40,425 nucleotides of DNA from the UHGV virus genome UHGV-0387913; one strand, given 5' to 3'. The position numbers and the translations under genes were made by a program. Below the pieces are notes generated by a model. That model was not told the origin of the DNA and ran no database searches. It worked only from the letters and a program-made list of their open reading frames with translations. Each line of letters starts with the position of its first letter. Position 1 is the stretch's first letter. The stretch is from a virus. Shown piece by piece: positions 1 through 40,425 of the stretch.

Positions 1-1234
1 ATTGCTTGGCCTTCTTAGCGAGGAACTCAAGGGACTTCTCTTCGTAACCACGGGTACCGCCAGCGTCCATCAAGTAGATGTACCCGTTGAGGGTATATAG
101 TACGCACCAGCCAGTCTCATCCTTACCGCGACCGCTTGGGTCAATGACCAGAATCTTACCCTGATACGCACCAGTGTTACTGGAGGCTGTATGGAAGGAG
201 TAAATCTCATCACCCTTCATGCCCACGTTAGGAAGCTCCTCATTGCGGTTCTGGCGGTTAGGCAACCACTGGTAATGCATTGGGGCCTTGTCCATCTGTA
301 GACCGCACACGATAGCGTCACGGAGGCGTAGTGGGTACTTCTCGGCGTCACTGAGGTTCGGGTTGAGCATGAACTGAAGCGTATAGCCAGCCTTACCGTA
401 TTCCACCTCACGCTCCTGAAGGTCCATAGAGTCGAATCGCACCGGGTCAGTAGGTTGGCTACCGAGACCCTCCTTGTCCTCATCGTACTCGTTACGGAGC
501 ATTGGAGCCAAGCGGTCGCCATAGTACAGGTCTTCATCTTTGGAGCGGGGATACTGTGCTGGCCAGATGATGGTTGAGTACCCACGGTTGTCCTCAAGTT
601 CCTTGTAGAGCGTCATCTCGGTCTGAGGGGTCCCCAGATAGATAACACGGCTAGTCGGTAGAGGTTTCAACAGCGCGGCGAACTCCTGAACCAACGTCCA
701 GAGTTTCTCACGAGCACCTTGGGTTGCAGAGTTACCGGGAATCTCCACGTCATCCGCAATGATGATATCGGCACGGCTACCAGTAAGCTGACCAGTAATA
801 CCCACAGACTTAACTGACGGGCTGTGGTCTGGCTTGGCAGGGCCTACATCAAAGCTAATCACGGAATCACGCTGACCGGGGCGGGGCTTAAGCTCACTCA
901 GGAAAGGCAACAAGTCGATGATGTTCTTGATGAAGATGGAGTTAGCGTCCGCACGTTCCTTTGAGGCCGAGACAATCAGTATCTTTAACTGAGGGTCACG
1001 CCACAGGGTCCACACTACGAACGCACACGTAATGAACGACTTCCCGATACCACGAAAAGCCTGAAGGATAAACTTCTTGTTCTTTGGGTCTGCCAGACAC
1101 TTGGCCATGTCGATTTGACACTTGGTTGGTTCAGGCAGGTTCAGGGCCTTCCAGAGCACGAAGAGAAAGGCGACAAAGTCACCCTTCAGTTGCGCAATGA
1201 TTAAGGCGTTCTTGGCTTGCTGAGAGTTACTCAA
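1..1234 (-). CDS. 19: Terminase large subunit (gp19), N-terminal 411 codons. The ORF continues across the window boundary into 39902..40425. The start is a TTG at 1234..1232 that overlaps the gp18.5 stop as TTGA.
   Basis: The translation reads (M)[33 protein letters not shown], matching the T7 gp19 N-terminus MSTQSNRNALVVAQLKGD. The RBS GGGAGGTG lies 6 nt upstream. The frame stays open to base 1 and continues ...AKKAKQ|W|[17 protein letters not shown] across bases 1 and 40425. Confidence 0.85.
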
Positions 1235-1677
1235 TGTTCACCTCCCTTCCCTTGCAGCTTGCGAATTGTGTCCTGTAGGGCCTTCTCTTTGAGGTCGGCC
1301 TTCCGGGTTATTTCGATAAGACTTCGAGCAGTTGCTTCGTGTAGTTCGACGGAACCATCAACGAGGCATCGACCGTCTGGTCCTGCGGCGACACTGGTAG
1401 GTTTGACTCTGACGCGCAGCCGCTTATTGTCGCTACGCAAATCAGCAATAATCCTATCAGTGCTGCCTTCCAGCCCTTCAAGGTCTGCTTGGTACTTAGC
1501 CGATACTGCGTCAATCGCTTTCTGAGTTTCAGCTCTAGCCGTTTGCTTCTTAACGTACTCATTCTGTACCACCTCCTTCCACTTGGTGTCCGTAGATTGT
1601 GAACCGAAGTGCCACCCGAAGGAGAACACCATGATAACCACAAGATACGGGACGATTCTCTTTGTAATTTCCAGCAT
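1231..1677 (-). CDS. 18.5: Rz-like i-spanin (gp18.5).
   Basis: The 148-aa protein opens [25 protein letters not shown] and contains [33 protein letters not shown], nearly identical to T7 gp18.5. It has an N-terminal TM segment. Confidence 0.9.
1308..1562 (-). CDS. 18.7: Rz1-like o-spanin lipoprotein (gp18.7), embedded in the +1 frame of gene 18.5.
   Basis: An internal Met of the 147-aa overlapping ORF gives [15 protein letters not shown]...[18 protein letters not shown], which carries the lipobox LxxC and matches T7 gp18.7 ([18 protein letters not shown]). Confidence 0.8.
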   Translation of the reverse strand: MSTLRSKRLELKLRKRLTQYRLSTKQTLKGWKAALIGLLLICVATISGCASESNLPVSPQDQTVDASLMVPSNYTKQLLEVLSK

Positions 1678-1727
1678 AATGCCTCCCGATGTTTCTCAAA
1701 TTTCACGTAGGAACGCCTAGCGTAGTG

Positions 1728-1782
1728 TAATGACATCCATAAAGGCACCACATATAGTAGTACCTTGAGTATATCACTGTAG
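1728..1782 (-). promoter_or_regulatory. RNase III-type processing hairpin (R18.5 analogue) between genes 18 and 18.5.
   Basis: The motif ccataaaggcaccacatatagtagtaccttgagtatatcact recurs at 25528, 32215 and 32745 in front of genes 4.7, 1.3 and 1.1. Confidence 0.5.
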
Positions 1783-2031
1783 GGTGAACGTATCGTCGTC
1801 TGTCAGACCATCCGCGCCCACCTTGGAGTTATAAGCCTCCAGACCCTCAGCCAGTCCGCCCAAGATGTTAACGTCAGGGGTCAGCTTAGAGATTTGGAAC
1901 TTATGGCGCTCCAGTAGTTTACCAATGGCGTTGTACAGCTGAGGGGTTCGCTTCTCAGGATTCTTTAGGTCCATGAGCATCTGCTGCGCCATCTCAGTGT
2001 CTAACATTTCGAGGAACTTAATCAGGTCCAT
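1774..2031 (-). CDS. 18: Terminase small subunit (gp18).
   Basis: The 85-aa protein reads MDLIKFLEMLDTEMAQQMLMDL...RHKFQISKLTPDVNILGGLA...GLTDDDTFTLQ, matching T7 gp18 (ITFLEMLDTAMAQRML...GLTDDDIYTLQ). Confidence 0.9.
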   Translation of the reverse strand: MDLIKFLEMLDTEMAQQMLMDLKNPEKRTPQLYNAIGKLLERHKFQISKLTPDVNILGGLAEGLEAYNSKVGADGLTDDDTFTLQ

Positions 2032-2034
2032 AGA

Positions 2035-2238
2035 TTACTCCTTGTTTGCTTTCTTCCAGTCAATGATTTTATCGACTACCTTGGCACCAATCTGAACCAC
2101 TGTGTAGGCGATTGCCGCTACGTAGAACCACTCGTTGAGTGAGAGGCCCCAGAATAGCCTCGCTACGCCATCGGCCCCAGCGACCCCCGCAATGGGAGCC
2201 GCCTTGATAACTTCGTTGTTGAAGTCTAGGGATAACAT
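2035..2238 (-). CDS. 17.5: Class II holin (gp17.5).
   Basis: The 67-aa protein MLSLDFNNEVIKAAPIAGVAGADGVARLFWGLSLNEWFYVAAIAYTVVQIGAKVVDKIIDWKKANKE is nearly identical to T7 gp17.5. Confidence 0.92.
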   Translation of the reverse strand: MLSLDFNNEVIKAAPIAGVAGADGVARLFWGLSLNEWFYVAAIAYTVVQIGAKVVDKIIDWKKANKE

Positions 2239-2457
2239 TTAGACCTCCTTAGGCGTCACCACCACCTCAACTACCCCGCCGATATCCACAAGCCCGAATT
2301 TCTCCGGGTCAGTTAGGACGACAGTTAAGTCCACTGAGGTATCACCTCCAGCATCCGCTTGGGCGAAGTAAAGGTCCACACGAGCTGGTACATCACCATC
2401 AACAATGGCCTCATGCTTGTATGTGCACCGCATTAATGCTTTTACAGTCGTAGACAT
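2239..2457 (-). CDS. Hypothetical acidic 72-aa protein between the tailspike and the holin. T7 has no counterpart.
   Basis: A strong RBS AAGGAGGA sits 5 nt before the ATG, and the tailspike stop lies inside that RBS. The sequence is rich in D, V and T (MSTTVKALMRCTYKHEAIVDGDVPARVDLYFAQADAGGDTSVDL...). Confidence 0.6.
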   Translation of the reverse strand: MSTTVKALMRCTYKHEAIVDGDVPARVDLYFAQADAGGDTSVDLTVVLTDPEKFGLVDIGGVVEVVVTPKEV

Positions 2458-2474
2458 ATAGTCCTCCTTATTGT

Positions 2475-4985
2475 TTAGTCAAGAAGGGCTAGAGTACCCT
2501 TCCCATTTGTCTGCCACATCACAGGGAGCTTCAGCTGGATTGTGCCAACGATTCCCCGAAGAACGATGGCCGGATGAATGGCGACCGTCTTATTCTTATT
2601 GGCAGGACCTAGGTTATTGTTATATGTGAAAGCTGACTGTACCCCAACGTACTTAGAAGTAGTCAACGGGGTCGTCCTACCTTCATACTCAGCCGTTAGA
2701 AGCGCAGATACATCATAACTCTCTGTTCCATCATTATACCCAGCATCTACCCCATCAACACTGAACCGCAAGCGAGCATTCAGTTTCAATGCCCCACTCT
2801 GGATATCTTTCATCATCACGGAAATCCCAGAGTTAATCTCTGTGCCGTCACTCGCTGTGAACCGTAAGGACCTGTTGCATAACTCAATCCAGTCGTTCTC
2901 ATTGGTTAGTGTTACGTTGATGTACTGGAAACCATCTGCATCCTGAGTACCGTACGTTGCCGTTCCGGTTCCCGTCATAGTCACCGAGAGGCCCGTACCG
3001 GATTCAACTGTACCCTTAACGTTTAGACCGGGAGTTCCGTTGAAGCGATAGTTACCGTTATTCAGGGTCTGTCGATAGCTGACTAGACAATCGGGGTAGG
3101 GACTCGACGGGCAGTTATACACAGCGTTCATGTATTGGCTGGTTGTATCCGTGTAGCCCATCAAGGCCAAATGTGGCTCTGACGGAGCTGCTGGGAAGTA
3201 AATCGGGGAGTTGATGAACACATCCACCCCAAGCTCTGGTAGAGTCGCTGCACTGTGGAGAATCTTACGGCGAGACGCCCAAGCCCCCGGAACACCACCC
3301 GCCGCCTTAATCTCACAGTCCCCACCAATAGTCACACGACTGCGCTCATTATACCAAGGAACCGACTGTGCAATCTGGTTCACCAGCATACCACCCCAGC
3401 CCTCAATGTGTCCACCCTCAACCTTGATGGCTACACCACGCGCCCCGTTATCCAAGTTGATAACATGACCGCCGCAGTAATCCATTGAGGTATCTCGTAG
3501 GGTAAGTGCCACACCCGGTGTGTTCCAATGGATGCCATGTGAGGTTGAGTCGGCAATCAAGGAGTTGAACACCACAATCTTCTCACCAGCGTTACCCTTA
3601 CCGCTCACCTTGGCTGCTATTCCCCAATAGTTACCAGACAGCGCCATACGTTCAAACGTCAAGATGTACGTATCGTGTGCATCGAACTCCAGCCCAGCTT
3701 GGAAACGTCTAATCTCCATATCGGAAACGTTGAGGTCTCGAAGGTCCAGAATGTTTGGGCCAGTGGCTGTGTTACCAACGCGCATACCAGCTGCTTGGGA
3801 CGACGTAGCTCCCGGTCCGATTAGTTTAAACCTACCAGACCTGTTAGCGAACAGTTTGATACCCTGCATGTCTCGCCAAGGTAGCAGTCCCGGTACAACA
3901 CCAGCTATCTGGTTGGTAACATGAATGGCCACGTCAGTGATTGGTGTGAACTCCACATAATGATTACCATCTACCTCGATTGGGATGAATGAGGGAATCT
4001 TAATGGACTGATTGAGTCTGCCGGAGTATGGTCCTGTCTGTGTAGCAAACGGTGAAGACGCTAAGTTCGGGATTAGGATGGTGGGTGTGCGCACTGCTGT
4101 ACCTAAGGCTAGTACCTTGGCCAGAACAGCATTGTATACCCGGTTAAATGTAGTACCCAAGTTGGAACCATCTGGGCGTAACCCAGCGTACCGAAGGTCA
4201 ATTCCGCTAGGTGCCAACAGTTTAAACCGCTTACCTGTAGTGGTCACAATAGTCATCACACCGTCATCCCCTGACGTTGAATCATTAGGGTCGTATACGT
4301 AGGTTACGTCAATCGGTGATACCGACAAGGAGATGTCCCAGAAGGCTACCGTTACTCTCTGATACGGAACAGTTGGGTCGATAGCACGAAGCTCCCCAAG
4401 GCTCTTACAGAACCCTACTAGAGAGGACCCTGCCGGACCAGCCAGATGAGACCTTAAGGTTGTATCTACTACCGCTTCCTGTGCAGCTCTAGCAGCCTCT
4501 TGTGCAATCCCAGCATCCTCCTCGGCACTTACCGCAGACAGGCGAGCCTCTGCTGCATACTCCTTGCCTTCCTCCGCGCTTCTTGCAGACTGGGCCGCAC
4601 TCTCAGCTGCCATCACTACGTAACCCTTAGCAATATCGACTGACTGGTCTCGGCCCTCCTCGGCAATATGAATAGACTGGAGCTGCGACACGTTCAGGTC
4701 GGAGGCTCGCAGCACAGAGCCATCATTGAAGTCCACCACAGGCTCTGAACCTGTCGTTCTCCGAATCTCGACAAAGGAGTATCCTTCAGGGAAGGTGCCC
4801 ATTAGAACTATCGAGGAGCGAGAGGTATACCTGTAGTCTACACCGTTTGTCAAGACGACAGACTCCAACCCTGATTGTGTCGCGGATACTACCACGAATT
4901 TTCTTGATAGAAAGTCAAATGGGATTGTGTAGTTAGGCCCATCGGATAGTGCGTATGTTCCTACTGTTTTTATCTCAGCGTTCAT
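2475..4985 (-). CDS. 17: Tail fiber or tailspike (gp17), 836 aa. It has a T7-like N-terminal adaptor domain and a long divergent C-terminal receptor-binding domain that is probably a depolymerase beta-helix.
   Basis: The N-terminal roughly 150 aa (MNAEIKTVGTYALSDGPNYTIPFDFLSRKFVVVSAT...DFNDGSVLRASDLNVSQLQSIHIAEEGRDQ) align to T7 gp17 residues 1-150. The remaining roughly 680 aa are unlike T7 and contain repeats such as GGHVINLDNGARGVAIKVEGGHIEGWGG, which resemble right-handed beta-helix lyases. Confidence 0.85.
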   Translation of the reverse strand: MNAEIKTVGTYALSDGPNYTIPFDFLSRKFVVVSATQSGLESVVLTNGVDYRYTSRSSIVLMGTFPEGYSFVEIRRTTGSEPVVDFNDGSVLRASDLNVSQLQSIHIAEEGRDQSVDIAKGYVVMAAESAAQSARSAEEGKEYAAEARLSAVSAEEDAGIAQEAARAAQEAVVDTTLRSHLAGPAGSSLVGFCKSLGELRAIDPTVPYQRVTVAFWDISLSVSPIDVTYVYDPNDSTSGDDGVMTIVTTTGKRFKLLAPSGIDLRYAGLRPDGSNLGTTFNRVYNAVLAKVLALGTAVRTPTILIPNLASSPFATQTGPYSGRLNQSIKIPSFIPIEVDGNHYVEFTPITDVAIHVTNQIAGVVPGLLPWRDMQGIKLFANRSGRFKLIGPGATSSQAAGMRVGNTATGPNILDLRDLNVSDMEIRRFQAGLEFDAHDTYILTFERMALSGNYWGIAAKVSGKGNAGEKIVVFNSLIADSTSHGIHWNTPGVALTLRDTSMDYCGGHVINLDNGARGVAIKVEGGHIEGWGGMLVNQIAQSVPWYNERSRVTIGGDCEIKAAGGVPGAWASRRKILHSAATLPELGVDVFINSPIYFPAAPSEPHLALMGYTDTTSQYMNAVYNCPSSPYPDCLVSYRQTLNNGNYRFNGTPGLNVKGTVESGTGLSVTMTGTGTATYGTQDADGFQYINVTLTNENDWIELCNRSLRFTASDGTEINSGISVMMKDIQSGALKLNARLRFSVDGVDAGYNDGTESYDVSALLTAEYEGRTTPLTTSKYVGVQSAFTYNNNLGPANKNKTVAIHPAIVLRGIVGTIQLKLPVMWQTNGKGTLALLD

Positions 4986-5027: not shown

Positions 5028-5050
5028 TCTCCCTATAGTGCTACCTAATT
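5028..5050 (-). promoter_or_regulatory. Phage RNAP promoter (phi17).
   Basis: The minus strand reads AATTAGGTAGCACTATAGGGAGA, an exact consensus copy, directly upstream of gene 17. Confidence 0.85.
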
Positions 5051-12310: not shown

Positions 12311-12333
12311 TCTCCCTATAGTGCTACCTAATT
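12311..12333 (-). promoter_or_regulatory. Phage RNAP promoter (phi13).
   Basis: The site is an exact consensus AATTAGGTAGCACTATAGGGAGA. It is flanked by the inverted repeat gtctccct...agggagac. Confidence 0.85.
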
Positions 12334-12359
12334 GCACAACACCACAGGGAGACTTTCAG

Positions 12360-17400: not shown

Positions 17401-17423
17401 TCTCCCTATAGTGCTACCTAATT
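17401..17423 (-). promoter_or_regulatory. Phage RNAP promoter (phi10).
   Basis: The site is an exact consensus copy. A roughly 250-nt leader follows before gene 10. Confidence 0.85.
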
Positions 17424-18423
17424 AAAACTTAGAGTCGATAACCTTCTGTTCCACTTCACGGCGATACTTAGAGTCGCTGCGGTAACGGGGGTCAGACATA
17501 GCTTTAATCATCTCAGCTTGAGACTCGAAGCCCTCAGCCTTACGGGCCACAGGTTTCGCTGGGGTTGCACGCTTGGTAATAGTGCGTTCAGCTTTCTTAC
17601 CAAAGGTTTTATCACGAGACTGTCCCGCTAGGTTCAGAATCGTCTTCATGGTGGCTACATCACGAGACTCAAAAGCCTTGATGAGCGCCTCGGCACCCTC
17701 AGGGTTGTTGGTCTGCATGTGACCATAGACCTGCTGGAAGCGCTCACGGCCACCAACGAAGTCCATCACTTTGTCTACGTACTGGTTGACCAGAGCTTCC
17801 TGACCACGGATGTACGCATCGACGAACGCCTTACTGTAGCCAGCCTCAGCCAACTCTCGGTAGGACTCATCGGACAAACTGTCTTCATTTTGGTACTCCT
17901 GCTGAATACGGGTCACAGCATCCTGTGAGAGACCGCGTTCGATTGCAGTAGCAACCATGTCGTTAAAGCCAGCTTCGTGCTCTTCCAGCTGCTGAGAGGC
18001 TTCGTTGATGTCAGCCGGAGTTTCACCAATAGGTTTGAACTCTTCAGGTTCACCCTCGGTTACTTCCTCCGACTGACTCTCTTCAGTGTCGCCCTGCTGT
18101 TCTTCTTCAGCTTCGGCGGACTCTTCAGGGTCATCACCGTCAGCGGAGATACGGACCTGCATACGGCCCTCTTCATGTTCACCAAACGGGTCAACATCGG
18201 AGCCATACGGGTCATCGCTGTTGGTGTTCAGCTCGATTGCATCATCGCCATCGCGGGCAGCAACATCAAGAGCCAACATGTTTTCTTGGTGCTCCTCAGG
18301 CGTGCTACCAGTCAGTACAGCACTGTTAACACCGAAGGATGCGTATACGTCTGCGTTAGATTCACCAGCCATTTCAATCTCCTTAAAGTTAAGACTAAGA
18401 GGAGACTTACTAGCAGTGTTCAC
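17422..18423 (-). CDS. 9: Capsid assembly (scaffolding) protein gp9.
   Basis: The 333-aa protein is highly acidic and sits in the conserved position between portal and capsid. Confidence 0.85.
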   Translation of the reverse strand: MNTASKSPLSLNFKEIEMAGESNADVYASFGVNSAVLTGSTPEEHQENMLALDVAARDGDDAIELNTNSDDPYGSDVDPFGEHEEGRMQVRISADGDDPEESAEAEEEQQGDTEESQSEEVTEGEPEEFKPIGETPADINEASQQLEEHEAGFNDMVATAIERGLSQDAVTRIQQEYQNEDSLSDESYRELAEAGYSKAFVDAYIRGQEALVNQYVDKVMDFVGGRERFQQVYGHMQTNNPEGAEALIKAFESRDVATMKTILNLAGQSRDKTFGKKAERTITKRATPAKPVARKAEGFESQAEMIKAMSDPRYRSDSKYRREVEQKVIDSKF

Positions 18424-18466: not shown

Positions 18467-18489
18467 TCTCCCTATAGTGCTACCTAATT
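18467..18489 (-). promoter_or_regulatory. Phage RNAP promoter (phi9).
   Basis: The site is an exact consensus AATTAGGTAGCACTATAGGGAGA. Confidence 0.85.
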
Positions 18490-20889: not shown

Positions 20890-20928
20890 AATGGGCACTT
20901 CCCTATAGTGCTACCTAATTAGTGCCCA
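20890..20928 (-). promoter_or_regulatory. Inverted repeat around phi6.5, an RNase III R6.5-like hairpin.
   Basis: Perfect 8-bp arms ATGGGCAC/GTGCCCAT flank the promoter. T7 R6.5 overlaps phi6.5 in the same way. Confidence 0.5.
20897..20919 (-). promoter_or_regulatory. Phage RNAP promoter (phi6.5), variant AATTAGGTAGCACTATAGGGAAG.
   Basis: Twenty-one of 23 positions match the consensus. The site is embedded in the hairpin atgggcac(20890-97)/gtgcccat(20921-28). Confidence 0.8.
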
Positions 20929-26191: not shown

Positions 26192-28103
<1,912 letters not shown>

Positions 28104-30146: not shown

Positions 30147-30169
30147 TGTCCCTATAGTGCTACCTAATG
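30147..30169 (-). promoter_or_regulatory. Phage RNAP promoter (phi2.5), variant CATTAGGTAGCACTATAGGGACA.
   Basis: Twenty-one of 23 positions match the consensus. The transcript 5' end can fold as GGGACACAGGCUGUCCC. Confidence 0.75.
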
Positions 30170-31114: not shown

Positions 31115-31121
31115 ATTGTTG

Positions 31122-31143
31122 TCTCCTATAGTGCTACCTAATT
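31122..31143 (-). promoter_or_regulatory. Phage RNAP promoter (phi1.5/1.6 analogue), variant AATTAGGTAGCACTATAGGAGAC.
   Basis: The site has one deletion in the GGGAGA initiation region. It overlaps the ligase stop. Confidence 0.6.
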
Positions 31144-32258: not shown

Positions 32259-32281
32259 TCTGCCTATAGTGCTACCTAATC
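32259..32281 (-). promoter_or_regulatory. Phage RNAP promoter (phi1.3), variant GATTAGGTAGCACTATAGGCAGA, with the adjacent R1.3-type hairpin at 32215..32258.
   Basis: The promoter core is conserved. The upstream motif is atcataaaggccaccggaatccgatgaccttgagt. Confidence 0.7.
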
Positions 32282-32782: not shown

Positions 32783-32805
32783 TGTTCCTATAGTGCTACC
32801 TAATC
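32783..32805 (-). promoter_or_regulatory. Phage RNAP promoter (phi1.1B analogue), variant GATTAGGTAGCACTATAGGAACA, with the R1.1-type hairpin at 32745..32783.
   Basis: Positions -17 to -1 are conserved. The upstream motif is tcatgaaggccaccagatgatgaccttgagt. Confidence 0.65.
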
Positions 32806-33442: not shown

Positions 33443-33465
33443 GGTCCCTATAGTGCTACCTAATT
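33443..33465 (-). promoter_or_regulatory. Phage RNAP promoter (phi1.1A analogue), variant AATTAGGTAGCACTATAGGGACC.
   Basis: Twenty-one of 23 positions match the consensus. It sits immediately after the RNAP stop. The transcript 5' end can fold as GGGACCCGCUCUCUGGGUCC. Confidence 0.75.
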
Positions 33466-33475
33466 ACCGGAGACC

Positions 33476-36196
33476 TCACGCAAACGCAAAGTCAGACTCT
33501 AAGATATCGCGCAGATTCAGGTCCCCTTTAGCTGGTACCTCAGGCATCTTGTCGAGCTGAGACTCGTGCAGCTGGTCAGCGAACTGGTCATAGAAGTCTG
33601 CAATCACATCGTTATCCTCGTAAGTCTTCACCATGGTCTCACGAACCGCCTTGAACAGGTTGCCAGCGTCTGCCGGAATGGTACCGAAGGAGTCGTGAAT
33701 GAGCGCAAAGGAGCCAATCCCGTAGACCTCGTTAGCGTGCACTACGGTCATACGTAGGTGGCTACCATCCTGTGAGTGCACAAAGTTAGGCGCGATGCCT
33801 GACTCTTGCTTGTGCGCGTCAATCTCTTTGGTGTCCCCTTTGTTGTACGTCATAAATACGTTAGCCTGGCCCAGAAACGTCAGCTTCAGGCGCGCTTGGT
33901 CACGCTTGTGGTATTCTTGCCACACCGGGAATCCGTCTGGTGTAACCCAGTGGATTGCGCAGCGCTTGCGCAGTACCTCTTTAGTCTTCTTGTCCTTAAC
34001 TTCAGCGGCCAACAGCTTAGCGGCAGACTTCAGCCAGTTCATCGCTTCGACAGCGGCCACTACGGTCACGGTCACAGCATCCCAAATCAGCTTAGCCATG
34101 TAGCCAGCCGCTTGGTTCGGATGAGTGAACATCAAGCCATCACCATTATCAATAGCGGGCTGCACGGTATCCTCAAGAACTTGCTGGCGGAACCCGAACT
34201 CCTTGGAACCATACGCCAACGTCATGACTGAACGCTTAGTCACCTTGCGGGTCACACCATATTGCAACCACTGCGCGGCCATTACGGACTCGCCAAGTGT
34301 TACCTTCTCGCGGAACTCCCCAGTCTCCTTGTCGGCAATCTGCTCGACCACCGTCTGAGACCCGTTGACGACGTGTTGATGGAGCACCTCGTTGACCTTG
34401 TCGGCAACAATCTTGTAGATATCCTGCACGGTGTCGGAAGGCAGTAGGTTTACTGCGCGGCCACCGATAGAATCACGGAGCATTGCGCTGAAGTGTTGAA
34501 TCCCAGAGCAAGACCCATCGAACGCCAGTGGCAACGAGCAGTTGTAATTCAGGCCGTGATGCTTAACACCAGCATACTCGAAACAGAACGCTAAGAAACA
34601 GAATGGTGAATCTTGCTGAGTCCACCACGTGTTATTCAACGGGTCAGCTGCGCTCGCCAGAATGTTGCCCTCGTTCTCTTCGATAAACTTGATGCGCTCA
34701 GGGAATGGGACTTTATCTACACCAGCACAGTTTGCACCGTGAATCTTCAGCCAGTAGAACCCGTCGAGGCCGATTGGCTTACCTTTGGCCAGCGTAAGCA
34801 TACCCTTGGTCATGTCGTTACCTTGAGGGTTGAACATGCTCACAGCGTACACACGACCGCGCCAGTCCATGTTGTAAGGGAACCAAATGGCCTTGTGGTT
34901 TGCGAACTTATTGGCCTGTGACACCATGAACTCCATTGACAGGCGGCGAGACTGGCGAGCTTTGTCCTTACGGTAGACCGCTGCGGCCTCCTTGCGCCAA
35001 GCCTTGCGTGCCACCTCGTTGGTGTCGATATCGTCCGGGCGCGGTGGTAACTCTTCACGCTCAATCGCCGGGACATCACCTACCGGGCAGTGCTTCCAGT
35101 TGACAATCTCGTTGACTACCGCCAGCACCTTCTTGTTCACCTTCCACGGCGTGTTTTGTGCGAGGTTAACCGCCTTGTACACCTCAGGCATGTGAACATC
35201 TTCGTAGCGACGCAGCGCCTTCTTGGAGTGGGTACGCACCAGTGCCAGCGGGCGACGACCTACTGACCAGTACCCACCGCCTACAGTTCCAACCCAAGGT
35301 TTCGGAGGGACCACACAGGGCTGGTACATTGGGCTGATACCTGCAAGTGCGCCCGCTCGTTTACTCAGGAGTTCCACAAAGGCCGGAGCCAGCTGTACCA
35401 TTTGCATACTGGTGACATCATCCGAACCGTCCGCCATCTTGTTCTTGGTCATTTCCACCAGACCCGTGCCCTCGATGAGTAGCTCAAGCAGCTTGGTTCC
35501 TACGTGCATCTGCTCGTCGGTCTTCCAGCTCGCCCAGTTGTCACCACCCAGCATCCCTTTTGATATCATATCAGACTCGACAACTTGCATAAATGCCTTC
35601 TTATACACGTGGCCCACCCGCTTGTCCAGCTGGTCCGCTACGTTCTTCTTGAAGTAGGTGGCTTCCTGCTCGCGGATACGACCGAAGCGCGCCTCATCCT
35701 CAAGGGCCTTACCTAACTGCGAGGACACCTGCTGGATGGTGGCCTTAGAGGCGTCTGTGAGCGTCCCTAAGACGACCTTAATGGTCAGTAGTGCGATAGC
35801 CTCACTGGACACTCCGCGCTTCTCGTTGAGCACCTCAGCGCCCATACTAATGGCTAACTCTGAGGCCACGCCGTGCTTAATCGGGTAGTATGCGCGAGGC
35901 TTCTTACCACGTGCGGTTGCTTGCTCCTCTTTCCAATCGTTAATACGTTTGGTTAACTGCGGGTGCAGCGTTAGGACCAGCGGCTTAGCGGCCACGTTGT
36001 CAGCGAACTCGCCAGCCTTGACCTGACGTTCTAACATCTTCAGGAAACGCTGTTCGCCCAGCTCGTATGCTTCATGCTCAAGCGCCAGCTGTTCACGCGC
36101 CAGCTTATCCCCGTAGTGCTCGCTGAGGATGTTGTAAGGGATGGCAGCTAGCTCAATCTCGGAGAAGTCATTACGTGCAATGTTTAATGCGTTCAT
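33476..36196 (-). CDS. 1: Single-subunit DNA-dependent RNA polymerase (gene 1), 906 aa.
   Basis: The protein opens MNALNIARNDFSEIELAAIPYNILSEHYGDKLAREQLALEHEAYELGE and contains ...AIWFPYNMDWRGRVYAVSMFNPQGNDMTKG...PLAFDGSCSGIQHFSAM...ALIHDSFGT...LNLRDILESDFAFA, matching T7 RNAP. The catalytic D537 and D812 equivalents are present. Confidence 0.97.
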   Translation of the reverse strand: MNALNIARNDFSEIELAAIPYNILSEHYGDKLAREQLALEHEAYELGEQRFLKMLERQVKAGEFADNVAAKPLVLTLHPQLTKRINDWKEEQATARGKKPRAYYPIKHGVASELAISMGAEVLNEKRGVSSEAIALLTIKVVLGTLTDASKATIQQVSSQLGKALEDEARFGRIREQEATYFKKNVADQLDKRVGHVYKKAFMQVVESDMISKGMLGGDNWASWKTDEQMHVGTKLLELLIEGTGLVEMTKNKMADGSDDVTSMQMVQLAPAFVELLSKRAGALAGISPMYQPCVVPPKPWVGTVGGGYWSVGRRPLALVRTHSKKALRRYEDVHMPEVYKAVNLAQNTPWKVNKKVLAVVNEIVNWKHCPVGDVPAIEREELPPRPDDIDTNEVARKAWRKEAAAVYRKDKARQSRRLSMEFMVSQANKFANHKAIWFPYNMDWRGRVYAVSMFNPQGNDMTKGMLTLAKGKPIGLDGFYWLKIHGANCAGVDKVPFPERIKFIEENEGNILASAADPLNNTWWTQQDSPFCFLAFCFEYAGVKHHGLNYNCSLPLAFDGSCSGIQHFSAMLRDSIGGRAVNLLPSDTVQDIYKIVADKVNEVLHQHVVNGSQTVVEQIADKETGEFREKVTLGESVMAAQWLQYGVTRKVTKRSVMTLAYGSKEFGFRQQVLEDTVQPAIDNGDGLMFTHPNQAAGYMAKLIWDAVTVTVVAAVEAMNWLKSAAKLLAAEVKDKKTKEVLRKRCAIHWVTPDGFPVWQEYHKRDQARLKLTFLGQANVFMTYNKGDTKEIDAHKQESGIAPNFVHSQDGSHLRMTVVHANEVYGIGSFALIHDSFGTIPADAGNLFKAVRETMVKTYEDNDVIADFYDQFADQLHESQLDKMPEVPAKGDLNLRDILESDFAFA

Positions 36197-38886: not shown

Positions 38887-38909
38887 TCTCCCTATAGTGA
38901 TACCTAATT
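38887..38909 (-). promoter_or_regulatory. Phage RNAP promoter near the left end (phi-OL analogue), variant AATTAGGTATCACTATAGGGAGA.
   Basis: Twenty-two of 23 positions match the consensus. It lies about 414 bp from the inferred left terminus; T7 phi-OL is at nt 405. Confidence 0.7.
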
Positions 38910-39165: not shown

Positions 39166-39323
39166 CAACAGATAGGGACACAGAGACATCAACATATAGT
39201 ATCACCTAAGGATTCCCACCAGTCCCACCTAAGGTTAAACCGAAGGTTTATGGGAGGCCTAGGTTACTGAGAGTGAACTGAGAGGGTACCGGGGGGGGAT
39301 AACCAAAAGTGTAAACTGTGAGA
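39166..39323 (-). repeat. Probable direct terminal repeat of about 158 bp, present once in this permuted assembly. The genome left terminus TCTCACAG maps to 39323 on the minus strand.
   Basis: The minus strand reads TCTCACAGTTTACACTTTTGGTTATCCCCCCCCGG...ACCTTCGGTT...TGTCTCTGTGTCCCTATCTGTT. This parallels the T7 TR (TCTCACAGTGTACGG...ACCTTCGGTT...GTGTCTCTCTGTGTCCCTATCTGTTACAG, 160 bp). Confidence 0.45.
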
Positions 39324-39507
39324 TATGCACTCAGAACTTTATGTCATATTCTTAAAGGTAACCTCAGGTATTCCTCAGGTAAGTGCATAGACCCGTAGGT
39401 AGACCCAATGAGTCACCTAAGGTTAACTTTAAGTATTGACTATTGAGGGATGGAGTGGTGTATGCTGGTAAGCATCACTACGGAATCCCTAGCGCGTCAG
39501 GAAGACC

Positions 39508-39657
39508 CTAATCGCTACAAGTGAGTAGAGAGCACACGAGAGTCTCCAATCCACTGAGTTGCTGCTGAGTGACCAGTGAAGCCCCAAGGGCACCAGCAAG
39601 TACCAGCAGAAATCGCCAAGTAGTCCTATGGCGCAGTAAGTTAAACAGTAAGCGCAT
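39508..39657 (-). CDS. 19.5: gp19.5.
   Basis: Manual translation gives MRLLFNLLRHRTTWRFLLVLAGALGASLVTQQQLSGLETLVCSLLTCSD, 49 aa, compared with T7 gp19.5 MFRLLLNLLRHRVTYRFLVVLCAALGYASLTGDLSSLESVVCSILTCSD. The RBS AAGGAGGA lies 4 nt upstream. Confidence 0.8.
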   Translation of the reverse strand: MRLLFNLLRHRTTWRFLLVLAGALGASLVTQQQLSGLETLVCSLLTCSD

Positions 39658-39798
39658 AGGTCCTCCTTATGTTGGCTCTTAGTGTCTTATAGTTAGAGGG
39701 TGATATTATCATCACTACCCTCTCTCATAGAGGAGACTTAAAGTGCATACCTATATGAATGAAACTTTAAGTAGTCTTATAGTATGTAACCTTGGGTC

Positions 39799-39821
39799 TC
39801 TCCCTATAGTGCTACCTAATT
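39799..39821 (-). promoter_or_regulatory. Phage RNAP promoter downstream of gene 19 (phi-OR analogue).
   Basis: The site is an exact consensus AATTAGGTAGCACTATAGGGAGA, positioned before gene 19.5 and the right end. Confidence 0.8.
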
Positions 39822-39901
39822 CCAAGTGTCTGTTATACTTAGGGTTTTCCAAAAGTGGCCTTCCGTGGCCTAATGAATCCTTATGCGCAATAACTGCATA
39901 C

Positions 39902-40425
39902 TCACCATTCGATGAACATAGAGCTGTCCCCGTCGTCTTCCCATCGGATATCCACACCGTTGCTGCTGGTGGTGCGGAACTGCGAGACGTTACTCAGGGG
40001 CTTCTCCATGTGGTGCTCCAAGAACTCCTGAAGTACCTCAGCCTCTATCTTAACGGCGTCCTGCTGCATCGTAGAGCGAAGGAACTCGACACCCAGTGCT
40101 AATGCATCAAGTCGGTCATCGTGCGCCACAGCGCCCTTCTCACGGCTCATACGGGTCATCTGGTAGAACAGGCTGTACTTCAGAGCGTGCTTACCGTCTG
40201 CATCACGCGCTGTTTGGTAGTCCTGTCGGATTACCTCATCACGGATGACCAAGCGGTGACTTGCTAGTACAGGCTCAAGGGTATCGCAGATACGGACCTC
40301 TTTCATGCCACGAGCACGAATCTCTTCGAGCTGCGCTGGGTGATGCTTCAGGAGCACAGGCTGGAACACGTTACCGAACATACCGTCACCGAAGTTACTC
40401 TCGAAGACAATAGTCTGTACCTGCC
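39902..40425 (-). CDS. 19: Terminase large subunit (gp19), C-terminal 174 codons. It continues from 1..1234 across the window boundary.
   Basis: The sequence ...[102 protein letters not shown]...SSMFIEW is nearly identical to the T7 gp19 C-terminus. Confidence 0.93.

What the first reader, a model, noticed from the sequence alone, without database searches (positions are those of the whole stretch)
33476..36196. Distinct phage promoter specificity (AATTAGGTAGCACTATAGGGAGA) co-varying with RNAP specificity-loop substitutions
Thirteen promoter copies share -7 to +6 with T7, T3 and K11 promoters, but -8 to -12 read GGTAG. T7 has CGACT there and K11 has GGGCA. The exact or near-exact copies are at 5028, 12311, 17401, 18467, 20897, 28081, 30147, 31122, 32259, 32783, 33443, 38887 and 39799. 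Counting back from the conserved IHDSFG (D812), the specificity loop aligns to T7 739-768 as YHKRDQARLKLTFLGQANVFMTYNKGDTKE against T7 YKKPIQTRLNLMFLGQFRLQPTINTNKDSE. The base-reading residues N748, R756 and Q758 are therefore K, N and F here. In T7 these three residues read bases -11 to -8, so this looks like a promoter/polymerase pair of altered specificity. The 906-aa length and the AATTAGG start resemble the Klebsiella phage K11 lineage, but the recognition bases do not.
Basis: partly seen in the sequence, partly recalled or inferred. Interest (0 to 1): 0.7.

Follow-up and report, generated by a model that had tools for sequence, protein, structure and literature searches.

The report
Second promoter type in K11-like phages
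This Klebsiella phage carries a T7-like RNA polymerase whose DNA-reading loop and all 13 of its promoters differ together from phage K11; the matched pair looks real but uncharacterised, and about 60% of sequenced phages in the genus already share it.

Summary
A 906-aa T7-like RNA polymerase lies at 33476-36196 (minus strand). Thirteen AATTAGGTAGCACTATAGGGAGA-type promoters sit at the same 13 positions as K11's annotated promoters. The loop aligns to T7 as N748K, R756N and Q758F.

The window is a complete, circularly permuted Przondovirus genome. Compared with the characterised relatives K11, KP32 and IME321 (all K748/N756/K758 with GG[G/A]C[A/C] promoters), only residue 758 of the three canonical residues differs (K to F). 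Eight other loop residues also differ.

I compared 53 przondovirus RNAP loci. All nine fixed protein differences between the two types lie in the loop. In about 32.7 kb of aligned genome, 38 of 48 near-fixed sites lie in the loop or in promoter positions, mainly -10 to -8. Loop type predicted promoter type almost perfectly, with 3-4 exceptions in about 600 promoters. This strongly supports a distinct cognate specificity.

It is not unique. About 235 GenBank przondoviruses, including Whistle, KpV289 and IL33, share the loop and promoter, against about 150 of K11 type. I found no biochemical characterisation of this type.

Verdict: a new, uncharacterised member of a well-known kind; moderate interest.

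The parts
33476..36196 (-). Gene 1: T7-like single-subunit RNA polymerase, 906 aa
   Evidence: ORF. Full-length alignment to T7 RNAP 1CEZ with E=0, catalytic D537, K631, Y639, H811 and D812 contexts conserved. Pfam PF00940 and PF14700. 99.1% aa identity to phage Whistle and 96.9% to K11.
33824..33913 (-). Specificity loop, residues 762-791 (T7 739-768): YHKRDQARLKLTFLGQANVFMTYNKGDTKE, the 'F-type' allele
   Evidence: It holds all 9 fixed aa differences from K11-type RNAPs (residues 763, 765, 766, 773, 781, 786, 788, 789, 790). Between-type nucleotide divergence is 17-22% here against 5-9% elsewhere in the gene.
33854..33856 (-). Codon for F781 (T7 Q758; K in K11/KP32), the only one of the three canonical base-reading residues that differs from K11
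   Evidence: Codon table (TTT vs AAG). All three codon positions are near-fixed between the types.
38887..38909 (-). Promoter phiOL equivalent, AATTAGGTATCACTATAGGGAGA (GGTAT variant)
   Evidence: Syntenic with K11 phiOL. GGTAT in 24/26 F-type contigs.
33443..33465 (-). Promoter phi1.05 equivalent, AATTAGGTAGCACTATAGGGACC
   Evidence: Type-diagnostic sites 33456-33457.
32783..32805 (-). Promoter phi1.1 equivalent, GATTAGGTAGCACTATAGGAACA
   Evidence: Diagnostic sites 32797 and 32805.
32259..32281 (-). Promoter phi1.3 equivalent, GATTAGGTAGCACTATAGGCAGA
   Evidence: Diagnostic sites 32272, 32273 and 32281.
31121..31143 (-). Promoter phi1.6 equivalent, AATTAGGTAGCACTATAGGAGAC
   Evidence: Diagnostic sites 31134-31136.
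30147..30169 (-). Promoter phi2.5 equivalent, CATTAGGTAGCACTATAGGGACA
   Evidence: Diagnostic sites 30160-30161.
28081..28103 (-). Promoter upstream of the primase/helicase gene (phi3.8/4 equivalent), CATTAGGTAGCACTACAGGGAGA
   Evidence: Diagnostic sites 28094-28095.
20898..20920 (-). Promoter phi6.5 equivalent, AATTAGGTAGCACTATAGGGAAG
   Evidence: Diagnostic sites 20911-20913.
18467..18489 (-). Promoter phi9 equivalent, consensus sequence
   Evidence: Diagnostic sites 18480-18482.
17401..17423 (-). Promoter phi10 equivalent, consensus sequence
   Evidence: Diagnostic sites 17415-17416.
12311..12333 (-). Promoter phi13 equivalent, consensus sequence
   Evidence: Diagnostic sites 12324-12326.
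5028..5050 (-). Promoter phi17 equivalent, consensus sequence
   Evidence: Diagnostic sites 5041-5042.
39799..39821 (-). Promoter phiOR equivalent, consensus sequence
   Evidence: Corresponds to Whistle 40055 and K11 phiOR at 40503.

Best explanation
The window is a complete Przondovirus (K11/KP32-like Klebsiella podophage) genome. It carries the 'F-type' allele of a two-allele transcription system.

Shown by comparison:
- The phage RNA polymerase works like T7 RNAP. After host RNAP has transcribed the early genes, the enzyme recognises 13 23-bp promoters that drive the middle and late genes.
- Przondoviruses come in two discrete types. K-type has a K748/N756/K758 loop and GG(A/G/T)C(A/C) promoters. 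F-type has a K748/N756/F758 loop and GGTA(G/T) promoters. This phage is F-type.

Inferred:
- Promoter choice is made by the specificity beta-hairpin (window residues 762-791) inserting into the major groove at -12 to -7.
- R746 reads G:C at -7, which is unchanged.
- K748 reads GG at -12/-11, as in K11.
- N756 reads T-10/A-9, as in K1F-like enzymes, which pair N756 with ACTAT.
- Replacing K758 with F removes the lysine contact that in K11-type enzymes goes with C:G at -9 and A/C at -8. This shifts preference to A at -9 and G/T at -8.
- The eight other fixed loop changes (H740, R742, D743, T750, K763, D/E765, 766, K767) probably tune hairpin geometry.
- The two types discriminate enough that a mismatched loop or promoter is selected against. 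That selection would keep 14 dispersed loci matched despite recombination.
For: Anatomy.

One-to-one positional match of the 13 promoters with the 13 annotated K11 promoters, and conservation of each promoter's own +1..+6 idiosyncrasies.

Co-variation:
- In the 27 F-type loci, including the window, nearly all of about 200 promoters are GGTAG or GGTAT. In the 26 K-type loci, nearly all of about 200 are GG[AGT]C[AC].
- In the late region, 110/110 and 110/110 promoters match type, with no cross-type.

Localisation:
- All 9 fixed aa differences are in the loop.
- Nucleotide divergence between types exceeds within-type divergence only at codons 751-810.
- Of 48 near-fixed sites in about 32.7 kb, 9 are in the loop, 29 inside 12 promoters, 9 within 25 nt of one of these, and 1 isolated.
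- Loop type needs 8 switches on a tree of RNAP codons 1-750, against 1 on the loop tree. The association is therefore not simple clonal descent.
- No half-loop chimeras occur among about 385 GenBank records.

Residue-to-base code:
- Zhu et al. 2025 (PMC11880802) link 748 to -11/-10, 756 to -10/-9 and 758 to -8, and showed KNK with GGGCC is active and orthogonal in a T7 scaffold.
- K1F-like NNQ loci use ACTAT, validated for Ro45lw (PMC12272871).
- K-type promoters are validated for KP32 (PMC13580328) and IME321.
Against: - No biochemical or in vivo test of the F-type enzyme was found or could be done here, so the degree of discrimination is inferred from selection signatures only.
- K748 and N756 are identical in both types although -9 differs. 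The simple three-residue code therefore does not fully account for the switch, and the F758 contact model is conjecture.
- Three to four cross-type promoters exist at middle-gene positions (L010, L013, L023, L022). This could mean partial cross-recognition, or that these promoters are dispensable.
- Outside the loop, nearest neighbours are mostly of the same type (0.83-0.93). Part of the association therefore reflects recent shared ancestry.
Confidence: 0.8

Rival explanations
1. The two promoter variants are functionally equivalent. Both polymerase types transcribe both promoters, and the loop/promoter association reflects shared ancestry or hitch-hiking rather than altered specificity.
For: Nearest neighbours outside the loop are mostly of the same type. 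A few cross-type promoters are tolerated. K-type promoters are already degenerate at -10 and -8. KP32 RNAP shows some activity even on the T7 promoter (PMC13580328).
Against: Under ancestry alone, fixed differences should be scattered across the genome. Instead 38 of 48 near-fixed sites fall in about 1.2% of the sequence, namely the loop and the promoters. No fixed aa difference lies outside the loop. Loop type is polyphyletic on the flank tree, with 8 switches. -9 and -8 are known specificity positions.
Confidence: 0.08
2. Specificity differs, but it is determined by something other than the specificity loop, such as another phage-encoded factor or another RNAP region. The loop changes would then be secondary.
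For: The canonical residues K748 and N756 are unchanged although -9 differs. About 7.7 kb of the genome (window 1-4962, 39324-40425 and some gaps) was not covered by the differentiation scan.
Against: There is no other fixed aa difference in the RNAP, and no near-fixed site inside any other gene except one isolated site at 17724. T7-like RNAPs need no accessory factor for promoter recognition (established knowledge; the KP32, IME321 and K11 enzymes work alone in vitro).
Confidence: 0.04
3. The F-type loop was imported by recombination from a K1F-like (Kayfunavirus-type) phage that reads TA at -10/-9, rather than diverging in place.
For: Protein-level resemblance to K1F-like loops at D743, N762-K763-G764 and K767-E768. 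Shared TA at -10/-9. Elevated synonymous divergence in the cassette.
Against: At DNA level the F-type loop core is 72% identical to the K-type core but only 53-58% identical to K1F-like cores. The shared residues look convergent. This rival concerns origin only, not function.
Confidence: 0.08

Closest known systems
Klebsiella phage K11 RNA polymerase and its promoters (also KP32 RNAP, RNA 2026; and 'KpnP' RNAP of phage IME321, JBC 2025)
   Same: Same genus. 906 aa with the same N-terminal 20-aa insertion. 96.9% aa identity to K11. Same 13 promoter positions. Identical promoter bases at -17..-11 and -7..+6. Shared R746, K748 and N756.
   Different: Nine loop residues differ, including K758F. 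Promoters read T-A-G/T at -10..-8 instead of (A/G/T)-C-(A/C). The F-type enzyme has not been characterised, whereas all three characterised enzymes are K-type.
Sequenced but uncharacterised F-type przondoviruses (Whistle, KpV289, IL33, PRA33, KpV766/767, ZK2 and others; about 235 GenBank records)
   Same: Whistle has an identical 30-aa loop and an identical promoter consensus at the same positions. The 94-aa loop region is 98-99% identical in 234 records. IL33 annotates the phiOL promoter TAGGTATCACTATAGGGAGA.
   Different: Genome-wide nucleotide identity is only about 91-94%, so the window is a different strain or species. Nothing differs in the feature itself.
K1F-like polymerases (N748/N756/Q758; for example Escherichia phage Ro45lw) with ACTTAACTATCACTATAGG promoters
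   Same: N756 paired with T at -10 and A at -9. Loop residues D743, NKG (762-764) and K767 are shared.
   Different: RNAPs are only about 60% identical. They have N748 and Q758, read AC at -12/-11 and T at -8, and their loop DNA is not closely related to the F-type.
T7/T3 natural specificity pair and engineered orthogonal T7 RNAP variants (Temme 2012; Meyer 2015; Zhu et al. NAR 2025)
   Same: Same principle: a few specificity-loop residues co-vary with promoter bases -12..-8. Zhu et al. mined 840 T7-like genomes and tested KNK-GGGCC.
   Different: The main text of Zhu et al. does not mention a K/N/F combination or GGTAG, and its supplements were not readable here. The class was probably in their dataset, but I could not verify that.
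Experimental evolution of T7 with an RNAP retargeted to a promoter differing at three bases (Garry et al., GBE 2018, PMC6171733)
   Same: A three-base promoter change coupled to an RNAP loop change. Promoters must follow the polymerase.
   Different: That was a laboratory system with incomplete promoter conversion. Here nature shows a complete 13-promoter conversion, maintained alongside the ancestral type in one genus.

Membership tests
T7-like single-subunit DNA-dependent RNA polymerase | RNA_pol (PF00940) catalytic domain plus RPOL_N (PF14700) | tested here: met
   PF00940 E=1.2e-111 and PF14700 E=1.8e-20.
T7-like single-subunit DNA-dependent RNA polymerase | Catalytic residues equivalent to T7 D537, K631, Y639, H811 and D812 | tested here: met
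   The motifs PLAFDGSCSGIQH, TKRSVMTLAYGS and LIHDSFGT are identical in the full-length alignment to 1CEZ.
T7-like single-subunit DNA-dependent RNA polymerase | Specificity beta-hairpin with conserved R746, paired with C at -7 in the promoters | tested here: met
   R769 aligns to T7 R746. C at -7 in all 13 window promoters and in 210 of 218 F-type motif hits; the 8 with T are the terminal-repeat promoter-like element.
T7-like single-subunit DNA-dependent RNA polymerase | Factor-independent transcription from its cognate 23-bp promoter | not testable with these tools
   Needs in vitro transcription. Shown for the K-type relatives KP32 and IME321.
Genus Przondovirus (K11/KP32-like phages) | High genome-wide nucleotide similarity and T7-like synteny with members of the genus | tested here: met
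   91-94% identity over 84-87% of 25 kb to IL33, ZK2, KN4-1 and others. RNAP 93.7% nt identity to Whistle. Promoter positions match K11.
Genus Przondovirus (K11/KP32-like phages) | 906-aa RNAP with a 20-aa N-terminal insertion absent from T7 | tested here: met
   The gap in T7 opposite window residues ~105-127 corresponds to the '20 aa motif' described for KP32 RNAP.
K11-type promoter-specificity class | Loop residues K748/N756/K758 (YRKQNQARLKLVFLGQANVKMTYNTGKDSE) | tested here: not met
   The window has F at 758 and eight further loop differences.
K11-type promoter-specificity class | Promoters with GG(G/A)C(A/C) at -12..-8 | tested here: not met
   12 of 13 window promoters read GGTAG and one reads GGTAT. 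None has C at -9.
F-type (K748/N756/F758 with GGTAG) przondovirus class, as defined in this report | Loop YHKRDQARLKLTFLGQANVFMTYNKG..KE together with GGTA(G/T) promoters at all phage-promoter positions | tested here: met
   Loop identical to Whistle, L004-L007 and L046. 13 of 13 promoters are of this type.
K1F-type promoter-specificity class | N748/N756/Q758 loop with ACTAT at -12..-8 | tested here: not met
   Only N756 and TA at -10/-9 are shared. The window has K748 and F758, and GG at -12/-11.

The most novel reading that the evidence does not exclude
Przondoviruses consist of two sympatric 'transcription types' whose polymerases are mutually orthogonal although they differ at only nine loop residues. 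Epistatic selection would keep the loop and all 13 promoters (14 dispersed loci) matched while the rest of the genome recombines between types. That would be a natural multi-locus co-adaptation and an incipient recombination barrier. It would also give a ready-made orthogonal RNAP/promoter pair in which a phenylalanine replaces the usual polar base-reading residue at position 758.
Probability: 0.5. Interest if true: 0.6.

Novelty: new member of a known kind. Interest (0 to 1): 0.4.

Why it matters
If the F-type enzyme discriminates strongly against K11-type promoters, and the K-type enzyme against GGTAG, three things follow.

1. There would be a natural orthogonal partner for the K11 and KP32 polymerases, which are now being developed for mRNA manufacture. 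The two scaffolds are about 97% identical, which is useful for multiplexed expression.
2. It would be a test case beyond the simple 748/756/758 recognition code. The -9 base changes although residues 748 and 756 do not, and a hydrophobic residue sits at 758.
3. It would be an unusually clean natural example of a polymerase and all of its promoters switching together, and staying matched, within a recombining phage genus. This complements the T7 laboratory evolution experiments.

For annotation, K11-consensus promoter searches will miss the promoters of most przondoviruses.

Tried and rejected
- Literature string searches for TAGGTAGCACTATAGG and GGTAGCACTAT found no phage paper.
- Papers on the closest phages (ten przondoviruses including Whistle, Adeo, KP192/KP195) say nothing about promoters.
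- Zhu et al. 2025: the main text has no KNF or GGTAG, and its supplements are not held. I could not establish whether the class was catalogued or tested there.
- Three RNAP-screening papers were checked. The only przondovirus enzyme characterised in them, KpnP/IME321, is K-type. One of the three mentions K11 only in passing, and the other two cover no przondovirus enzyme.
- I searched for natural half-loop chimeras with two synthetic chimera queries and found none.
- Import of the loop from a K1F-like donor was rejected on DNA identity.
- My first reading, that sequence outside the loop is 'freely mixed', was too strong. Nearest neighbours are mostly same-type. The tree test shows repeated but not unlimited uncoupling, with 8 switches against about 18 for random labels.
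- F at 758 as something unprecedented was rejected. Among 150 diverse ssRNAP representatives, F, Y, W, L, V or M align to this position in roughly 15%, although the alignment is approximate at 35-56% identity.
- My first promoter regex had the wrong spacing and found nothing; this was corrected.
- GenBank annotation: KpV289 annotates no promoters in the first 9 kb checked (the early region, which holds phiOL and the first promoters after the RNAP gene), and IL33 annotates only one.
Full report

Yes.
- A 906-aa ORF lies at 33476..36196 on the minus strand.
- It aligns over its full length with T7 RNA polymerase (PDB 1CEZ, E=0), and the catalytic motifs are intact.
- It matches Pfam RNA_pol and RPOL_N.
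- In that alignment the window segment YHKRDQARLKLTFLGQANVFMTYNKGDTKE lies opposite T7 residues 739-768.
- The 23-mer AATTAGGTAGCACTATAGGGAGA occurs 12 times at up to 3 mismatches, all on the gene-coding (minus) strand. None was found in 100 shuffles.
- A core-anchored scan adds the 13th copy at 31121-31143.

Small corrections:
- Two start coordinates are off by one.
- The copy at 38887 is GGTAT.
- T3 promoters have A at -2, so the '-7 to +6 shared with T3' statement is not exact.

**2. What is the window?**

It is a complete, circularly permuted genome of a Przondovirus (K11/KP32-like Klebsiella podophage) in reverse orientation.
- The RNAP gene is 93.7% identical in DNA to phage Whistle, and 91-93% identical to dozens of other Klebsiella phages.
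- Of the 25 kb tested, 84-87% aligns at 91-94% identity to IL33, ZK2, KN4-1 and others.
- The 13 promoters match one-to-one the 13 promoters annotated in the K11 RefSeq record: phiOL, 1.05, 1.1, 1.3, 1.6, 2.5, the one before gene 4, 6.5, 9, 10, 13, 17 and phiOR.
- Individual quirks downstream of -7 are conserved position by position, for example GGCAGA at phi1.3, GGAGAC at phi1.6 and ACTACAGG before gene 4.
- The promoters are therefore orthologous, and only the upstream triplet has been exchanged.

**3. Two discrete types within the genus**

K11 and KP32 share the loop YRKQNQARLKLVFLGQANVKMTYNTGKDSE (K748/N756/K758). Their promoters read GGGCA, GGACA or GGACC at -12..-8. Whistle has the window's loop exactly and the window's promoter at the same positions.

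I fetched 80 RNAP loci with 10-kb flanks from viral contigs. Together with the window, Whistle, K11 and KP32, these gave 53 przondovirus 906-aa polymerases.
- 27 were 'F-type' (26 K/N/F and one K/D/F) and 26 were 'K-type' (K/N/K).
- F-type loci carry GGTAG (about 88%) or GGTAT (about 10%, nearly always at phiOL).
- K-type loci carry GG(A/G/T)C(A/C).
- K-type tolerates T at -10, so the real discriminators are -9 (A vs C) and -8 (G/T vs A/C).

A second set of loci around gene 12 was linked to RNAP type by contig name.
- It gave 110/110 GGTAG promoters in F-type contigs and 110/110 K-type promoters in K-type contigs.
- Only 3-4 cross-type or intermediate promoters were seen overall, all at the phi2.5 or pre-gene-4 positions.

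In GenBank phages, the 94-aa loop region is at least 95% identical in 234 records. About 148 records fall in the K-type band. The window's type is therefore the majority.

**4. Where do the two types differ?**

This is the strongest evidence for a functional coupling.
- All nine fixed amino-acid differences between F- and K-type polymerases lie in the loop: window residues 763, 765, 766, 773, 781, 786, 788, 789 and 790, which are T7 740, 742, 743, 750, 758, 763 and 765-767.
- There are no fixed differences in the other roughly 876 residues.
- The window enzyme differs from K11 at 28 positions (9 in the loop) and from Whistle at 8 (none in the loop).
- Along the gene, between-type nucleotide divergence equals within-type divergence (5-9%), except at codons 751-810. 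There it is 17-22% against 5-7%, and many of the changes are synonymous.

Mapping all loci onto the window gave the following.

| Region scanned | Aligned length | Near-fixed sites | In the loop | In promoters | Elsewhere |
|---|---|---|---|---|---|
| Early/middle | 13.8 kb | 28 | 9, plus 2 just beside it | 16, in seven promoters | 1, 18 nt downstream of phi1.6 |
| Late | 18.9 kb | 20 | 0 | 13, in five promoters, plus 1 adjacent indel | 5 just upstream of phi13; 1 isolated at 17724 |

- In total, 38 of 48 diagnostic sites fall in about 1.2% of the sequence.
- No half-loop chimeras exist among about 385 GenBank records.

I initially read this pattern as free mixing outside the loop, which is too strong.
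- Nearest neighbours outside the loop are mostly of the same type (0.83-0.93).
- But a neighbour-joining tree of RNAP codons 1-750 needs 8 type switches. The loop tree needs 1, and random labels need about 18.
- So the loop allele has repeatedly been uncoupled from its flanks by recombination, while loop and promoters stay matched.
- Both types occur in the same metagenome sample set.

**5. Mechanism**

Established background:
- In T7 RNAP the specificity hairpin reads the major groove. R746 reads -7, N748 reads -11/-10, R756 reads -10/-9 and Q758 reads -8.
- Covariation analysis of 840 T7-like genomes recovers the same position pairs (PMC11880802).
- A T7 scaffold carrying K/N/K is active and orthogonal on GGGCC.

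Seen here:
- K748 goes with GG at -12/-11 in both przondovirus types.
- N756 goes with T-10/A-9 in K1F-like phages: N/N/Q loops with ACTAT promoters, a promoter validated for Ro45lw.
- N756 goes with the same TA in the F-type.
- The F-type specificity therefore reads as a composite of the K11 rule upstream and the K1F rule at -10/-9.

Inference:
- The K758F change removes the lysine that in the K-type accompanies C:G at -9 and A/C at -8.
- The eight non-canonical fixed changes probably adjust the hairpin. Several of them (D743, K763, K767) recur in K1F-like loops.
- Since the loop DNA is closer to the K-type (72%) than to K1F-like loops (53-58%), that resemblance looks convergent and the cassette is a diverged sister allele rather than an import.
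- The exact contacts made by F758 are conjecture. Packing against thymine methyls is plausible.

**6. Comparison with what is known**
- The principle of loop and promoter co-variation in T7-like phages is textbook (T7/T3/K11/SP6) and has been mined systematically (PMC11880802).
- All three biochemically characterised przondovirus polymerases are K-type: K11, KP32 (PMC13580328) and IME321 'KpnP' (PMC12272871).
- I found no paper that mentions the GGTAG promoter or a K/N/F loop.
- The sequences themselves have been public for about a decade (for example KpV289 and IL33). The IL33 record annotates one PHIRE-predicted promoter of this type.
- Given its scope, the Zhu et al. dataset probably contains this class, but its supplements were not readable here.
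- Aromatic or aliphatic residues align to position 758 in roughly 15% of 150 distant ssRNAP representatives. F758 is therefore unusual within the T7/T3/K11/K1F group but not across the family.

**7. Verdict**
- The feature is a lineage-wide trait and is in fact the majority type in the genus. Its kind is well known.
- I rate it a new, uncharacterised member of a known kind, with interest 0.4.
- The most interesting aspect came from the follow-up rather than from the window itself: two discrete transcription types kept matched at 14 loci within one recombining genus.
- The decisive tests are in vitro transcription with both enzymes on both promoter sets, and loop-swap experiments.

Noticed in passing
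window 39189-39211 (minus strand); also L001 111 and 40665, L002 112 and 41112, L003 88: A promoter-like element, CCTTAGGTGATACTATATGTTGA, lies inside the direct terminal repeat. It is conserved almost unchanged in both F-type and K-type phages, so it does not co-vary with the polymerase loop. It lacks the GGG start. It may be a terminal-repeat, concatemer-processing or replication signal rather than a normal promoter.
   Followed up: partly
window 38887-38909: The leftmost promoter (phiOL equivalent) reads GGTAT instead of GGTAG. This variant is conserved at this position in 24 of 26 F-type contigs, which suggests a position-specific requirement such as a different promoter strength.
   Followed up: partly
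L010 (+5240 from the RNAP stop), L013 (+3529), L023 (+5057), L022 (+5265): Rare cross-type or intermediate promoters: a K-type promoter in an F-type phage, the reverse, and one GGTGG. All are at the phi2.5 or pre-gene-4 positions. They are candidate recombination scars at promoters that may be dispensable because of read-through.
   Followed up: partly
window 32805 and 32281: The phi1.1 and phi1.3 promoters have G at -17 in F-type phages where K-type phages have A. These sites are near-fixed although they lie outside the -10..-8 triplet.
   Followed up: no
window 12345-12354: Five near-fixed differences between the types cluster in the short spacer between the gene 12 stop codon and the phi13 promoter. 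This is probably hitch-hiking with the promoter triplet.
   Followed up: no
L017 (RNAP loop): One F-type contig has D instead of N at the position equivalent to T7 756 (K/D/F) but carries normal GGTAG promoters.
   Followed up: no
window RNAP residues ~105-127 (about 35816-35884, minus strand): The roughly 20-residue N-terminal insertion relative to T7 is present. It accounts for most of the 906 vs 883 aa length difference. A 2026 study of KP32 RNAP reported that it improves production of long transcripts.
   Followed up: no
window, whole: The window appears to be a full phage genome assembled as a circular permutation. The phiOR equivalent (39799), the terminal-repeat element (39211) and the phiOL equivalent (38887) are adjacent. 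All genes are on the minus strand.
   Followed up: partly
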